Assembly (NCBI GenBank): GCA_963718965.1
Contig: CAVRBJ010000022.1
Location: 82,479-146,478, forward strand
DNA: 64,000 nt
Origin: an uncultured delta proteobacterium
Lineage (GTDB): Bacteria > Desulfobacterota > WTBG01 > CAIYCZ01 > CAIRTM01
Direction: 5' to 3'
The notes beneath the pieces were generated by a model. That model saw nothing but the letters and a program-made list of their open reading frames with translations, searched no databases and was not told the DNA's origin. A program made the position numbers and the translations under genes. The first letter of the stretch is position 1, and each line of letters begins with the position of its first letter. Below, piece by piece: positions 29,834-33,193 of the stretch.

Positions 29834-29907
29834 CGGGGCGTAGCGCAGTCTGGTAGCGCACCTGCCTTGGGCGCAGGGGGTCGCTGGTTCAAATCCAGTC
29901 GCCCCGA
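29834..29907 (+). tRNA. tRNA-Pro (anticodon TGG)
   Basis: CGGGGCGTAGCGCAGTCTGGTAGCGCACCTGCCTTGGGCGCAGGGGGTCGCTGGTTCAAATCCAGTCGCCCCGA cloverleaf; anticodon loop CTTGGGC. Confidence 0.85.
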
Positions 29908-29925
29908 TAAACATATAATCCGCAT

Positions 29926-29964
29926 ATAAAAAGAGACCGGCAACAGTGCCGGTCTCTTTTTATT
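29926..29964. terminator. Bidirectional intrinsic terminator between tRNA-Pro and the surface-protein gene
   Basis: AAAAAGAGACCGGCAacagTGCCGGTCTCTTTTTATTT: 11-bp stem, A-run on one side and T-run on the other. Confidence 0.75.
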
Positions 29965-30012
29965 TCTCAGGGTGGGTTCAACCCACCATTTTTAAAAACA
30001 GTGATCTTTATG

Positions 30013-33000
30013 CTACAGCATGCACACCGTATCGCACACAGGCTGACCATTGCCGCCGCAGCCGGGGTCTGGGTCGCACACATCGCCTATGCCATCACTG
30101 TCGGCATCAAGCTGATAGTAATTACAGATGGCCGGGCAGTTATCATGTGCACTATCATGGGAGTCATAGTCGGAATCAGTCTGCCCCTCACAGGTTGGCT
30201 GGCCGCACCCGTCGCCGCAGCCGGGTGTCGTGTCGCACACATCACCTATTGCTGTCGCCATCGGCATCAAGCTGAAGCGGATTGGCAATATCCGGGCAGT
30301 TATCAAGAACATTTAAAATACCGTCATTATCCGTATCGCATGACTGCTCGCAGGCAGGCTGCCCTGCACCGCCGCAACCCGGATCCGGGTCGCATATATC
30401 CCCTATGCCGTTGCCATTGGCATCGAGCTGATGCACATTGCAGACGTTCGGGCAGTTGTCAGCGGCATCAGCCTACCCATCGCCGTCTGTATCAATCTGG
30501 CTCTCACAAACAGGCTGGCCGCAGCCTGTGCCGCAGCCGGGTGACGGGTCGCACACATCGCCTATGCCGTTGCCATCGGCATCAAGCTGCTGGGGGTTGG
30601 CAATGGCCGGGCAGTTGTCTGAGGCATTTGAGAATACCGTCGCCGTCTTTATCACTTCCGACATTAGAGGTAAATTTGCAAAGCTGCTTGCGCAGCCCTC
30701 AAAAGCCCAAACGTTTTTTGTAATATAAGGGGATATGCACCTATTGGCTGGAAATGGATTATAATTACCCTCAAAATATGCCGCAGTCAAACGAGGACAA
30801 TTAGAAAACGCTGCCCCCGGCTTCTTAATCAGCCCCCCAGGAGGCGGACCACCACAATAAGGTTCTCCGGTCTCATCATCGTACATCTCCCAACAACATT
30901 CACAACCAGCACTCAAAATTAAACTCGCCGGTATGAACACGGTGGTCAATGCGGGTACTGAAAACGCATAAGCCCCAATTCTTCTTACCGGCAGGCCTGC
31001 TATGGTATTGGGAATTACAAGAATTTCGGCAGACCCGGTATATCTGGTGATTGTGGCTGTATTGTCGTACGCTATTATGTAGTTAAAATCCCCGGCAACT
31101 CCAATTGACGTGGTGGTTGTGGGTTGCATGGTTGTTGTCGTAGTTGCTAGAAACCGTAGTGGTCGTAGTCGGCTGGATGGTAGTCGAAACGCTTGTCGTC
31201 CCGGTGACAGAAGTTGTCGTTGATGTGGTCAGCGCGTTAAAAGCATTAACGAGGGTATAAGCCCCTATGGAGCTTGAGCTGTAATGCCGCACCGCGACAT
31301 AATAGGTGCCGGCTGACAGCGTTCTCGTAATTGAAAAATTTAATCCTTCGCCATCATCGTCATCGGATTCGATATCGGTACATGCGCTGTCTTTTAAATA
31401 GCCATACGTGTCGGTGGACCCGGTTGTATACACATTCAGCGTTCCGTATGCGGGAATATTAATCGCGAAATAATCATAGTCGCCGGCAGGATTTATAGAA
31501 GCACTTATGGAGCTGTTGAGCGGCATGGCAAAGGCTGCTGCGCAACTGTTGCCGTAATCGTCGAGAATCAGTCGACGTTGTGGTCGGCTGAGTTGTTGTA
31601 GTTGTAGTTGTTACAGATGGATCAAACACCGCCGCAGGATAGCCGTACCAGGGATTGGTAAACCCGGTGGCACCGGCAACATAGTACACTTTAAAGCCGC
31701 TTGCGCAGTTATTAAAAACATATACCCCATTGTCGGCGCATTCCCGTAAAAATAGGCGGAGGCCAAACCTGGTGCAGCCATACAAACGCATTATCGCCAA
31801 TGCTCGTAACACTGGCAGGAATGTTAATGCTGGTCAAACCTGTGCAATGCCCAAAACATTGGGTCCAATAGCTTATAACGCTGCCAGGAATAGTCACACT
31901 GGTCAAACCTGTGCATCTCATAAAATGCTCGCCTGTCCCCAAAGCTTGTAACGCCGTTAGTATCCTGGTCACATCTGGTCAAGCCTGGTGCAATAGATAA
32001 AACGCCATTTTGTCCGGAATACTCGTAACGTTGCTCGGGATTTTAAGCTGGCCAAACTGCGCAACTGGAAAAAGCACAGGCCCAATAATTGTAACATTCT
32101 GAGGAATGGTCATACTGGTCAAGCCGGTGCAGCCAGAAAACGCGTTATGCCCAATATTCGTTACGCTGCTCGGGATGTAACGCTCGGTTAACCCGCTGCT
32201 ATCCTTGAAAATAGCACTGATCCCAATGGTTACTACCGGCATGCCGTCTATGGTATCTGGTATTACAACCGCTCCACCGGAGCCGGTATAGCCGGTGATG
32301 GTGACAGAGCCAGCTGATACTGTATAGGTAAACGGAAATAATGCCGTCGTATAGCCATACCACGGATTGGTAAACCCGGTGGCTCCGGCACGATAGTACA
32401 CTTTAAAACCGCTTGCGCAGCCACCGAAAACAATGTCGCCAATGTCGGTGCATTCCCGTAAAAATAGGCGGCAGCAAACTGTACAAAGGAAAACCCCCAC
32501 TTCCCAATACTTGTAACACTGGCCGGAATGATAATACTGGTCAAACCGGTGCAGTATAAAACTTCCGTGCCCGAGACTTGTAACATTGTTCGAAATGATC
32601 GCATTGGTCAAGCCTGAGCAATAGGCAAACGCAGCCTGTTCGATTCTGGTAACGCCGTTCAGGATGGTAACGCTGGTCAAACCGGAACATCCCATAAACA
32701 TGTAAGAGTAATGCTCGTAACGCTTTCGGAATGGTAAGCTGGTTAACCCTGCGCAGAAGGCAAACGCGGCTGTTCCAATACTGGTAACACTGTCGGGAAT
32801 GGTCAAACTGGTCAAACCGCAACCTTGAAACGCCCTTATCCCAATGCTCGTAACGCTGTTTGGGATGATAATCCCGGTCAAGTTACTGCAACCTTGAAAT
32901 GCCTCCAACCCAATGCTTGTAACGCTGCCCGGTATGGTAGCGCCGGTCAAGCTGCTGTTGTTCAAAAAAACCTGATCCCCAATACTTACTACCGGCATGC

Positions 33001-33193
33001 CGTCAATAGTATCGGGAATGGCAACATCTCCGCCGGGTCCGGTATAGCCGGTGATTGCGACCGCACTGCCTGAGACCGTGTAGGTAAAATCCCCATATTG
33101 CTGGGCAAAAGCAGATGAGTACAGAAACAGACAACCAATCACTGGCAGCAGGAAAATAGATTTTTTGAACTGCATAGAGAACCCCTCCTCCAC
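30013..33193 (-). CDS. Large secreted surface protein with signal peptide, BspA-type leucine-rich repeats, a pre-peptidase C-terminal (PPC) domain and thrombospondin-type-3-like Ca-binding Cys-rich repeats; fragmented into at least eight frames
   Basis: MQFKKSIFLLPVIGCLFLYSSAFA signal; repeated GLTSxTIPxSVTSIGxxAFxxC units; GDYDYFAINIPAYGTL...GTYYVAVRHY PPC; DADGNGIGDVCDPSPGCG TSP3-like; ~150-bp internal direct DNA repeats (31620-31760 vs 32350-32470). Confidence 0.55.

What the first reader, a model, noticed from the sequence alone, without database searches (positions are those of the whole stretch)
29834..33193. 3.2-kb repeat-rich surface-protein gene (LRR + PPC + TSP3-like) inserted next to tRNA-Pro and sharing its bidirectional terminator
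Directly after tRNA-Pro(TGG) and a strong bidirectional terminator comes a minus-strand gene. It encodes a signal peptide, many BspA-type leucine-rich repeats (GLTSxTIPxSVTSIG), a pre-peptidase C-terminal domain and C-terminal Asp/Cys-rich thrombospondin-type-3-like calcium-binding repeats. This is an adhesin or S-layer-associated architecture unusual for a sulfate-reducer-like genome. The DNA contains ~150-bp internal direct repeats (31620-31760 vs 32350-32470). These explain the at least eight frame fragments (assembly collapse) but would also allow repeat-number variation. tRNA-adjacent placement hints at horizontal acquisition.
Basis: partly seen in the sequence, partly recalled or inferred. 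Interest (0 to 1): 0.55.

Follow-up and report, generated by a model that had tools for sequence, protein, structure and literature searches.

The report
Riboswitch-controlled secreted LRR protein gene, frame-broken

Summary
A minus-strand gene (30013-33175) encodes a signal peptide, two BspA-type LRR_5 modules, a PPC domain, a degenerate third module and four pairs of thrombospondin type-3 repeats. It ends about 50 nt from the bidirectional terminator of tRNA-Pro(TGG).

The frame is broken by about 19 one-base indels plus one in-frame TAG. "Assembly collapse" does not explain this. The internal repeats are only 64-81% identical, and the longest exact repeat is 23 nt. The same window has frameshifts in infB, pnp and at least five other genes, so the assembly is noisy. 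The LRR gene is still a roughly 36-fold hot spot, which remains unexplained. I put about 60% on mostly artefact and about 30% on a real pseudogene.

Synteny supports an accessory insertion. Three of five relatives have an empty macA/tRNA-Pro slot, one carries a different gene, and one (L005) carries an intact 653-aa homologue. GC3 is low. There is no integrase and no att repeat.

The new result is a c-di-GMP-I riboswitch (33445-33525, 48 bits) followed by an intrinsic terminator in the gene's leader. It recurs before three related TSP3-tailed genes. It has A at position 20 (cGAMP-type or bispecific) and an OFF-type layout. The gene is a new member of a known kind, of modest interest.

The parts
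29833..29908 (+). tRNA-Pro (anticodon TGG)
   Evidence: ARAGORN. Rfam tRNA model, 67 bits. Conserved in all five relatives.
29929..29963 (.). Bidirectional intrinsic terminator: a 9-bp GC-rich stem with an A-tract on one side and a T-tract on the other. It serves tRNA-Pro and, by position, the convergent LRR gene.
   Evidence: Folds at z = -7.4 on the + strand and -6.8 on the - strand. It is conserved in L006, L007 and L008, which lack the LRR gene, so it predates the insertion.
29971..29987 (-). Extra hairpin (GGTGGGTTGAACCCACC) just after the LRR gene's stop codon. It has no U-tail on the minus strand.
   Evidence: Not conserved in L005.
29964..33625 (.). Strain-variable island: leader with riboswitch plus the LRR/PPC/TSP3 gene, occupying the slot between macA and tRNA-Pro.
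   Evidence: blastn and MAFFT against the empty-site relatives L004 and L008 place the boundaries at about 29962 and about 33625. The boundaries are approximate, because the empty sites hold about 150 nt of unrelated sequence.
30013..33175 (-). Gene for a secreted LRR_5 x2 / PPC / degenerate module / TSP3 protein. It is about 1049 aa after frame correction and is broken by about 19 frameshifts plus one TAG.
   Evidence: The longest open piece equals database protein P0001 (398 aa), the only exact match.
33104..33175 (-). Sec-type signal peptide, MQFKKSIFLLPVIGCLFLYSSAFA, with an AFA|QQ cleavage motif.
   Evidence: Read from the sequence. It is conserved in L005, P0122 and P0137. No signal-peptide predictor was available.
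32340..33103 (-). LRR module A: N-cap FTYTV...ITGYTGPGGD, about 8 BspA-type 23-aa units, C-cap AAAYFYGNAP...GATGFTNPWYGY. It carries 5 frameshifts (32738, 32727, 32707, 32559, 32443).
   Evidence: Frameshift-aware alignment to the L005 protein. 69-nt periodicity.
31600..32339 (-). LRR module B, absent from L005. It carries 9 frameshifts (32081, 32058, 32047, 31992, 31985, 31915, 31776, 31769, 31728).
   Evidence: It is 64% identical to module A at the nucleotide level.
31287..31481 (-). PPC (pre-peptidase C-terminal) domain, flanked by Thr-rich linkers. Frame changes lie in the linkers, at about 31570 and about 31150.
   Evidence: Pfam PF04151: 32.3 bits on the raw ORF and 27.8 bits on the corrected protein, against a cut-off of 25.9.
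30640..31100 (-). Degenerate third module (FNYIIAYDN...AAYFEGN...), collinear with module 2 of L005. Frameshifts at 30674 and 30631 lie at its end.
30013..30640 (-). Four pairs of thrombospondin type-3 Ca-binding repeats (DNCPxxxNPxQxDxDxDGxGDxCD plus a PGCGxxGQPxCE spacer). In-frame TAG at 30475 and a frameshift at 30252.
   Evidence: Pfam TSP_3. 159-nt tandem period. The L005 tail matches COMP 3FBY at E 6e-26 and thrombospondin-2.
33445..33525 (-). c-di-GMP-I (GEMM-I) riboswitch aptamer with A at the Vc2-G20 position. C92 and A47 are kept. P1 extends to about 33527/33441.
   Evidence: Rfam RF01051: 48.2 bits against a gathering score of 35, E 2e-8. Homologous aptamers occur in L005, L146 and L148. 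Covariation across the four sequences.
33385..33422 (-). Expression platform: a 12-bp terminator hairpin (AGGCCUGUCCUU-UAUUC-AAGGACAGGCCU) followed by UUUUAUUUU.
   Evidence: A hairpin plus U-run sits at the same place in L005, L146 and L148, with 5-6 compensatory pairs.
33540..33550 (-). Possible extended -10 promoter element (TGTGCTAAATT), about 10 nt upstream of the aptamer.
   Evidence: Read from the sequence. Inference only; the consensus scan did not list it.

Best explanation
The locus is an accessory cassette inserted between macA and the tRNA-Pro terminator. It consists of a promoter, a GEMM-I cyclic-dinucleotide riboswitch with its own intrinsic terminator, and a gene for a Sec-exported modular protein.

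The protein has BspA-type LRR modules for binding a partner. In this copy it also has a PPC domain. It ends in a thrombospondin type-3 'calcium wire' tail that this lineage attaches to many different secreted proteins.

The riboswitch carries A at position 20, so it should bind 3',3'-cGAMP, or both cGAMP and c-di-GMP. Aptamer and terminator do not overlap. In three of four homologous leaders, the 5' strand of the terminator can instead pair with the 3' half of the aptamer. Ligand binding should therefore free the terminator and switch the gene OFF (inferred).

The roughly 19 one-base frameshifts are most likely consensus errors of a noisy, probably long-read, metagenome assembly. They are concentrated in a strain-variable, internally repetitive gene, and the real gene is probably intact.

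Shown: the domains, the riboswitch match, the terminators, the synteny and the frameshifts. Inferred: ligand identity, switch polarity, adhesin function and the artefactual origin of the indels.
For: Domains:
-.
- An intact, collinear homologue at the same site in L005, with 60% amino-acid identity once module B and PPC are set aside.

Riboswitch:
- RF01051 scores 48.2 bits with A at model position 11 (= G20), C at position 83 (= C92) and A at position 38 (= A47).
- The same aptamer plus terminator precedes the L005 gene, P0122 (L146) and P0137 (L148).
- 8 of 36 consensus pairs show compensatory changes.
- Position 20 sets c-di-GMP versus cGAMP selectivity (PMC6140456; the A20G swap in PMC6456294).
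- Coexisting aptamer and terminator is the OFF-type layout seen in Cd1 (PMC9262584).
- In transcripts truncated before the terminator's 3' strand, the MFE pairs the terminator 5' strand with the aptamer 3' half in L005, L146 and L148. This is 6-7.6 kcal/mol better than leaving that strand unpaired.

Accessory status.

Noisy assembly:
- Frameshifts split pnp, infB, an ABC ATPase, a B12-radical-SAM gene, an FGE-sulfatase gene and a PAS-GGDEF gene.
- An amidohydrolase carries three window-specific 1-nt insertions relative to three relatives.
- Essential genes cannot be real pseudogenes.

Within the LRR gene:
- After correction, LRR_5 rises from 173.5 bits (the largest fragment alone) to 324.7 bits.
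- The consensus residues are intact.
- There is only one nonsense codon against 19 indels.
Against: - The indel density is about 6 per kb (12 per kb in module B) against about 0.17 per kb elsewhere in the window. Homopolymer content does not explain this, because the gene has fewer runs than the rest of the window.
- Only about half of the sites lie in runs of 3 or more bases.
- The indels come in same-direction triplets that restore the frame. Random error does not predict that.
- One in-frame TAG (30475) is a substitution-type lesion.
- The amidohydrolase next door may be a genuine pseudogene, since it is partly deleted in L004. Real gene decay therefore does occur in this lineage.
- In the window's own leader, the predicted alternative pairing of the terminator 5' strand is with the spacer, not the aptamer. 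The OFF logic is therefore less clear here than in the homologues.
- No ligand, reads or coverage data are available.
Confidence: 0.6

Rival explanations
1. The gene is a genuine decaying pseudogene. An accessory adhesin-like gene lost its function in this strain and has since accumulated many small indels and a nonsense codon. The riboswitch leader is a relic.
For: - Lesions are about 36 times denser than elsewhere in the window, as expected if selection is relaxed on this one gene.
- There is an in-frame TAG at 30475.
- The gene is dispensable, being absent in L004, L007 and L008.
- The neighbouring amidohydrolase also looks decayed, here and in L004.
Against: - With 19 indels, neutral decay should also leave roughly 100 or more substitutions and several nonsense codons. 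Only one is seen. That expectation rests on my own rough figures for the indel-to-substitution ratio, not on a computed result.
- The corrected protein still scores 324.7 bits on LRR_5, with repeat consensus, caps and Cys/Asp motifs intact.
- The riboswitch (48 bits) and its 12-bp terminator are unimpaired.
- The assembly demonstrably introduces frameshifts into essential genes.
- Another LRR_5+TSP3 gene in a 'contig_N' (Flye-style) assembly is also split by a frameshift (L150).
Confidence: 0.3
2. Assembly collapse or mis-join of near-identical internal repeats produced the frame fragments.
For: The gene is internally repetitive: 69-nt LRR units, 159-nt TSP3 units, and a 143-nt pair at 81% identity.
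Against: - Modules A and B are 64% identical overall, and the longest exact repeat is 23 nt. That is too diverged to collapse.
- Collapse removes whole copies and does not create isolated +1/-1 indels.
- Frame breaks also occur in non-repetitive genes of the window.
- The module order is collinear with L005.
Confidence: 0.05
3. The island arrived by integrase-mediated insertion into the tRNA-Pro gene, as in a classical tRNA-targeting genomic island.
For: The island lies next to the tRNA, has low GC3 and shows presence/absence polymorphism. L005 has an IS1595-family transposase next to its copy.
Against: - There is no integrase or recombinase ORF in or beside the island.
- No repeat of the tRNA 3' end occurs anywhere in the window.
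- The island begins beyond the tRNA's own terminator, not inside the tRNA.
- Empty sites hold about 150 nt of unrelated sequence, so this is not a clean insertion.
- The slot holds a different gene in L006.
Confidence: 0.05

Closest known systems
BspA-type leucine-rich-repeat surface proteins (Pfam LRR_5; Tannerella forsythia BspA, Treponema LrrA/TpLRR; solved 4FS7, 4GT6, 6MLX)
   Same: Repeat type and 23-aa unit. Secreted or surface location. The homologous module of L005 matches 4FS7 at E 9e-62 and TpLRR at E 1e-33.
   Different: This protein has two LRR modules with their own caps, a PPC domain and a C-terminal TSP3 tail. It comes from an environmental uncultured Thermodesulfobacteriota-like host. 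The binding partner is unknown.
Thrombospondin/COMP type-3 calcium-binding repeats (Pfam TSP_3; PDB 3FBY, 1YO8)
   Same: The Asp-rich DxDxDGxxDxCD motifs with paired cysteines. The L005 tail matches COMP at E 6e-26.
   Different: This is a bacterial tail of four long/short repeat pairs, ending ...GQPxCxxVCxL. In this lineage it is fused to many unrelated N-terminal domains: LRR_5, multihaem cytochrome, FGE-sulfatase, laminin-G and others. That suggests a shared anchoring or folding role, which has not been tested.
GEMM-Ib cGAMP riboswitches of Geobacter (pgcA/GSU1761, Gmet_0970/pilM)
   Same: GEMM-I fold with A at position 20 and C92 retained. Deltaproteobacteria-type host. Located upstream of genes for extracellular or surface proteins. 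Transcription-terminator platform.
   Different: The Geobacter examples are ON switches, in which aptamer and terminator are mutually exclusive (PMC9262584, PMC6456294). Here aptamer and terminator are separate, which is the OFF-type layout. Ligand selectivity is untested, and A20 variants can be bispecific (PMC6140456). One homologous leader (L148) has G20 and scores best on RF03167.
Cd1 c-di-GMP-I riboswitch of Clostridioides difficile (flagellar operon OFF switch)
   Same: Aptamer and terminator can coexist and compete with an antiterminator formed by the aptamer 3' strand (PMC9262584). The same layout is seen.
   Different: Cd1 has G20 and binds c-di-GMP. It controls flagella, not a secreted LRR protein.
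c-di-GMP riboswitch-controlled adhesins (V. cholerae gbpA/Vc1; C. difficile CD2831, CD3246, pilA1)
   Same: A cyclic-dinucleotide riboswitch directly upstream of a secreted or surface adhesion protein gene.
   Different: In those cases c-di-GMP generally turns adhesins ON; this comes from my own knowledge and was not checked here. The protein families differ, and for C. difficile the riboswitch class differs too (c-di-GMP-II).

Membership tests
BspA-type LRR (Pfam LRR_5, PF13306) | Profile match above the curated cut-off | tested here: met
   173.5 bits on the raw 404-aa ORF and 324.7 bits on the corrected protein, against a cut-off of 27.7.
BspA-type LRR (Pfam LRR_5, PF13306) | Tandem units of about 23 aa (xxAFxxCxxLTSVTIPxSVTSIG) | tested here: met
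   69-nt direct-repeat families D1 and D2, and TRF period 69. The units are visible.
BspA-type LRR (Pfam LRR_5, PF13306) | An uninterrupted reading frame, i.e. a functional gene | tested here: not met
   About 19 frameshifts plus one TAG in the sequence as given. The cause, artefact or decay, is unresolved.
Thrombospondin type-3 repeat (PF02412) | Profile match above the cut-off, and Asp/Cys calcium-binding motif | tested here: met
   37.7 and 31.2 bits on fragments and 91.9 bits on the corrected protein, against a cut-off of 25. The motif DNCPxxxNPxQxDxDxDGxGDxCD is visible.
Thrombospondin type-3 repeat (PF02412) | Calcium binding | not testable with these tools
   Sequence similarity only, to COMP and TSP-2.
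PPC domain (PF04151) | Profile match above the cut-off | tested here: met
   32.3 bits (raw ORF) and 27.8 bits (corrected), against a cut-off of 25.9. The margin is small. No PDB sequence match.
c-di-GMP-I riboswitch (Rfam RF01051) | Covariance-model score above the gathering threshold | tested here: met
   48.2 bits against 35, with a full-length match to model positions 1-87.
c-di-GMP-I riboswitch (Rfam RF01051) | Location in the 5' leader, on the same strand as the regulated gene, with an expression platform | tested here: met
   The aptamer (33525-33445) is followed by a terminator (33422-33394) and a U-run, and the gene starts at 33175.
c-di-GMP-I riboswitch (Rfam RF01051) | Structure supported by covariation in homologues | tested here: met
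   Four leaders were compared. 8 of 36 pairs show double changes, and the terminator stems differ in sequence. With only four sequences the support is modest.
c-di-GMP-I riboswitch (Rfam RF01051) | G20 / A47 / C92 ligand contacts | tested here: inconclusive
   A47 and C92 are present. Position 20 is A in the window, L005 and L146, and G in L148.
GEMM-Ib (3',3'-cGAMP riboswitch subclass) | A at position 20 | tested here: met
   The cmscan alignment gives AAAAG[A]GCAAU with high posterior probability. The role of this position is described in PMC6140456 and PMC6456294.
GEMM-Ib (3',3'-cGAMP riboswitch subclass) | Selective binding of cGAMP over c-di-GMP | not testable with these tools
   A20 variants can be bispecific (PMC6140456).
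GEMM-Ib (3',3'-cGAMP riboswitch subclass) | A cGAMP synthase (Hypr GGDEF or DncV-like) in the same genome | not tested
   Only 64 kb is available. A PAS-GGDEF (GGEEF) gene lies at 56606-57555, but its product specificity was not determined.
tRNA-targeting integrative island | Integrase gene at the island border | tested here: not met
   No such ORF lies between 28200 and 34135.
tRNA-targeting integrative island | Direct repeat of the tRNA 3' end at the distal border | tested here: not met
   The 22-nt tRNA 3' end occurs only once in the window, allowing up to 3 mismatches.

The most novel reading that the evidence does not exclude
In an uncultured Thermodesulfobacteriota-like lineage, A20-type GEMM-I riboswitches with OFF polarity form a regulon of secreted proteins. 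These proteins share a thrombospondin type-3 calcium-binding tail. The tail would act as a common, exchangeable surface-anchoring or matrix-assembly module. The second messenger, possibly cGAMP rather than c-di-GMP, would shut down display of LRR binding proteins. That polarity is the opposite of the Geobacter cGAMP regulon.
Probability: 0.2. Interest if true: 0.5.

Novelty: new member of a known kind. Interest (0 to 1): 0.3.

Why it matters
As a gene, this is an ordinary accessory LRR surface protein in a flawed assembly. Two points have some value.

First, it links a cyclic-dinucleotide riboswitch directly to a family of TSP3-tailed secreted proteins in uncultured anaerobes. The riboswitch has the cGAMP-type A20 signature but an OFF-type platform. 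This gives a testable handle on what these abundant, unstudied proteins are for, namely surface attachment or matrix, and on whether cGAMP signalling extends beyond Geobacter with a different logic.

Second, it is a practical warning. In this contig, frameshifts hit even infB and pnp and pile up in a strain-variable repeat gene. Pseudogene calls from such MAGs should not be trusted without reads.

Tried and rejected
- Looking up the source contig through the exact protein P0001 failed: it is not on record, and the cluster carries no name or accession. The sequencing technology therefore could not be established.
- The source genome is not among the species representatives. The best relative is 82-84% identical in the NYN protein.
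- The metagenome scan with the protein alignment keyed only on N-terminal peptides. It returned 80 generic LRR_5 loci. The TSP3 tail was not among the matched residues, and no riboswitch was found among the 16 of these loci scanned.
- A loose GEMM-like DNA pattern gave only spurious hits apart from L005.
- No close (>54% identity) intact copy of the N-terminal part exists in the 5.8-billion-protein collection. The indels therefore could not be called base by base against a near-identical reference. The paralogues L146, L148 and L005 are only 66-80% identical at the nucleotide level.
- Homopolymer content as the cause of the hot spot was rejected.
- A shared sequence motif at the indel sites was looked for. 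GCACCAGG recurs at two or three sites, but that follows from repeat homology, so it is inconclusive.
- A lipoprotein reading of the signal peptide (VIGC) was rejected. The motif is not conserved in L005, and the hydrophobic core continues past it to AFA|QQ.
- The primary Geobacter paper (PMC4418906) is not held.
- Structure prediction and the large profile search were not used, because they would not change the verdict.
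Full report
**1. What is in the sequence**

tRNA-Pro(TGG) lies at 29833-29908 on the + strand. It is followed by a perfectly symmetric hairpin at 29929-29963, with an A-tract on one side and a T-tract on the other. The hairpin folds far better than shuffled controls on both strands.

A gene converges on it from the minus strand. 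Its real start is the ATG at 33175, preceded by GAGGAGGGG. Its stop is at 30013-30015.

The mechanical ORF list shows the gene as many fragments in all three minus-strand frames. Pfam finds these domains on separate fragments:
- LRR_5 at E 2e-51
- PPC at E 2e-7
- TSP_3 at E 2e-9

**2. Reconstructing the gene**

A relative found through the neighbouring NYN gene (L005) carries an intact 653-aa homologue at the same position. I used it as the guide in a frameshift-aware protein-to-DNA alignment.

The window gene reads as follows:
- a signal peptide
- LRR module A
- LRR module B
- a Thr-rich linker
- a PPC domain
- a second Thr-rich linker
- a degenerate third module
- four pairs of thrombospondin type-3 repeats

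The corrected protein is about 1049 aa. It scores 324.7 bits on LRR_5, 91.9 on TSP_3 and 27.8 on PPC. Without module B and PPC it is collinear with the L005 protein at 60% identity. The window copy is therefore the L005-type gene with one extra LRR module and a PPC domain.

Closest solved structures:
- The LRR module of L005 matches Bacteroides and Treponema LRR_5 proteins (4FS7, 6MLX).
- Its tail matches COMP and thrombospondin-2.

**3. The frame breaks**

| Segment | Frameshift positions | Count |
|---|---|---|
| Module A | 32738, 32727, 32707, 32559, 32443 | 5 |
| Module B | 32081, 32058, 32047, 31992, 31985, 31915, 31776, 31769, 31728 | 9 |
| Linkers | ~31570, ~31150 | 2 |
| End of module C and TSP3 tail | 30674, 30631, 30252 | 3 |

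That makes 19 frameshifts, plus an in-frame TAG at 30475.

The indels are a mix of +1 and -1 events. Only about half lie in runs of three or more identical bases. The gene has fewer homopolymers than the rest of the window.

The internal repeats cannot have collapsed. Modules A and B are 64% identical, and the longest exact repeat is 23 nt. Collapse would remove whole units and would not create point indels.

**4. Is the assembly noisy?**

Yes. Elsewhere in the window, Pfam shows consecutive parts of one family on adjacent ORFs in different frames, which indicates split genes:
- pnp, in three pieces
- infB
- an ABC ATPase
- a B12-binding radical-SAM gene
- an FGE-sulfatase gene
- a PAS-GGDEF gene

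In addition, an amidohydrolase has three window-specific 1-nt insertions relative to three relatives. infB and pnp cannot be real pseudogenes, so the contig carries indel errors at roughly 1 per 6 kb.

The relatives from the same kind of project behave the same way. These are Flye-style 'contig_N' records such as L005 and L150. L005 has its own scattered 1-nt indels, and the LRR+TSP3 gene in L150 is split.

Against this background the LRR gene is a roughly 36-fold hot spot, and that needs a local cause. The locus is strain-variable: the same bin that gave L005 also gave an empty-site contig, L008. Low or mixed coverage of the island is therefore my preferred explanation. It is an inference, because I have no reads.

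Arguments for a real pseudogene:
- the density of lesions itself
- the TAG at 30475
- the apparent decay of the neighbouring amidohydrolase

Arguments against a real pseudogene:
- There is only one nonsense codon against 19 indels.
- The repeat consensus is intact.
- The riboswitch and its terminator are intact.

One observation fits neither model. The indels come in same-direction triplets that restore the frame (noted in the notebook).

**5. Accessory status**

blastn and alignments against five relatives show conserved synteny: macB, ABC, macA, a slot, the tRNA-Pro terminator, tRNA-Pro, NYN.

| Relative | Content of the slot |
|---|---|
| L004, L007, L008 | about 0.5 kb of non-coding DNA |
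| L006 | an unrelated 264-aa secreted-protein gene |
| L005 | the riboswitch-LRR-TSP3 cassette, next to an IS1595-family transposase |
| Window | the riboswitch-LRR-TSP3 cassette |

Other points:
- The terminator is present in relatives that lack the gene, so it is the tRNA's terminator, and the inserted gene abuts it.
- GC3 of the gene is 0.42-0.55, against 0.58-0.75 for neighbouring genes.
- There is no integrase, and the tRNA 3' end is not repeated.
- In the genome of L004, a related cassette sits at a different locus (L146). It has the same leader at 80% identity and the same N-terminus and tail.

Overall this is a mobile or frequently exchanged accessory cassette, not a classical tRNA-integrating island.

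**6. The riboswitch**

An Rfam scan of the window finds a c-di-GMP-I aptamer at 33445-33525 on the gene's strand. It scores 48.2 bits against a gathering score of 35. A 12-bp hairpin and a U-run follow 22 nt downstream.

The same arrangement precedes:
- the L005 gene (44 bits)
- P0122 in L146 (41 bits)
- the LRR_5+TSP3 gene P0137 in L148, whose best model is the c-di-GMP-I-GGC variant at 64 bits

It was not found in front of:
- the 16 other LRR_5 loci from the metagenome scan that were checked
- three further TSP3-tail loci

A four-sequence consensus fold recovers P1, both aptamer hairpins and a separate terminator. Eight pairs show compensatory changes.

The nucleotide equivalent to Vc2 G20 is A in the window, L005 and L146, and G in L148. 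C92 and A47 are kept. According to the literature:
- Position 20 distinguishes c-di-GMP from cGAMP riboswitches.
- A20 variants can be bispecific (PMC6140456).
- An A20G swap makes a Geobacter cGAMP riboswitch c-di-GMP-selective (PMC6456294).

Aptamer and terminator do not overlap. That is the OFF-type layout of Cd1 and not the ON-type layout of Geobacter pilM (PMC9262584).

I also folded transcripts cut just before the terminator's 3' strand. In L005, L146 and L148 the terminator's 5' strand pairs with the aptamer's 3' half, 6-7.6 kcal/mol better than alternatives that leave it unpaired. In the window it pairs with the spacer instead. OFF polarity is therefore likely for the family but less clear for this copy.

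**7. Comparison with what is known, and verdict**

All of the pieces are known kinds: BspA-type LRR proteins, TSP3 repeats, GEMM-I/Ib riboswitches and accessory genes beside tRNAs.

The TSP3 tail is shared by many 'Deltaproteobacteria' MAG proteins with unrelated N-terminal domains. The architecture is therefore not unusual for this lineage.

I found no paper linking LRR or TSP3 proteins to these riboswitches. However, riboswitch-controlled adhesins are a familiar theme.

I rate this a new member of a known kind, with modest interest.

Noticed in passing
window 529-2678 (-) and 4707-7481 (-): pnp is split into three ORFs in three frames, with breaks near 1640 and 2110 (the latter at an A4 run). 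infB has its N-terminal IF2_N part (6954-7481) in a different frame from the body (4707-6791). Essential genes are broken, so the contig has indel errors.
   Followed up: partly
window 26548-28205 (+): The amidohydrolase gene is split. It has three window-specific 1-nt insertions (about 27604, 27643 and 28073) relative to L005, L006 and L007. The same gene is partly deleted in L004, so this may be a genuine pseudogene.
   Followed up: partly
window 52370-53363 (+), 50315-51659 (-), 59524-60520 (-), 56606-57555 (+): Four further genes are each split by one frameshift: an ABC ATPase (at an A5 run near 52650), a B12-binding radical-SAM gene, an FGE-sulfatase gene, and a PAS-GGDEF (GGEEF) diguanylate-cyclase-type gene.
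   Followed up: partly
window 35386-35554 and 36371-36587: Elements of about 170-200 nt in the spacers of the macA-ABC-macB operon are absent from those spacers in L004, L005 and L008. They match inverted copies elsewhere in L004, L007 and L008. They look like small mobile repeats (MITE- or REP-like).
   Followed up: no
window 33625-33746: A conserved intergenic element is shared with L004 and L008. It contains an inverted pair of DnaA-box-like nonamers (TTATCCACA ... TGTGGAYAA). Its function is unknown.
   Followed up: no
window 37883-38923 (+): A TrkA-type K+ channel gene is present here and in L006 and L007 but missing from L004, L005 and L008. This is a second presence/absence polymorphism in the neighbourhood.
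   Followed up: no
window 45153-45642 (+): A ParD-like (RHH) antitoxin and ParE toxin pair.
   Followed up: no
L005 6630-7310 and L005 vs window 19269-21738: An IS1595-family transposase is inserted between macA and the riboswitch cassette in L005. L005 also has several 1-nt indels relative to the window and L004 inside an otherwise conserved gene, so it is a noisy assembly too.
   Followed up: partly
L150 1138-3365: Another LRR_5+TSP3 gene is called as two overlapping ORFs (frameshift). It lies directly upstream of tRNA-Sec and selA, so this family sits next to a tRNA a second time.
   Followed up: no
L001 4354-4713: The nearest database homologue of the N-terminal part (P0002, 47% identity) lies near a MamF/MmsF-family gene. 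This may indicate a magnetotactic host.
   Followed up: no
L072 371-565: Two Acido-Lenti-1 sRNA matches lie in inverted orientation upstream of an unrelated LRR_5 gene.
   Followed up: no
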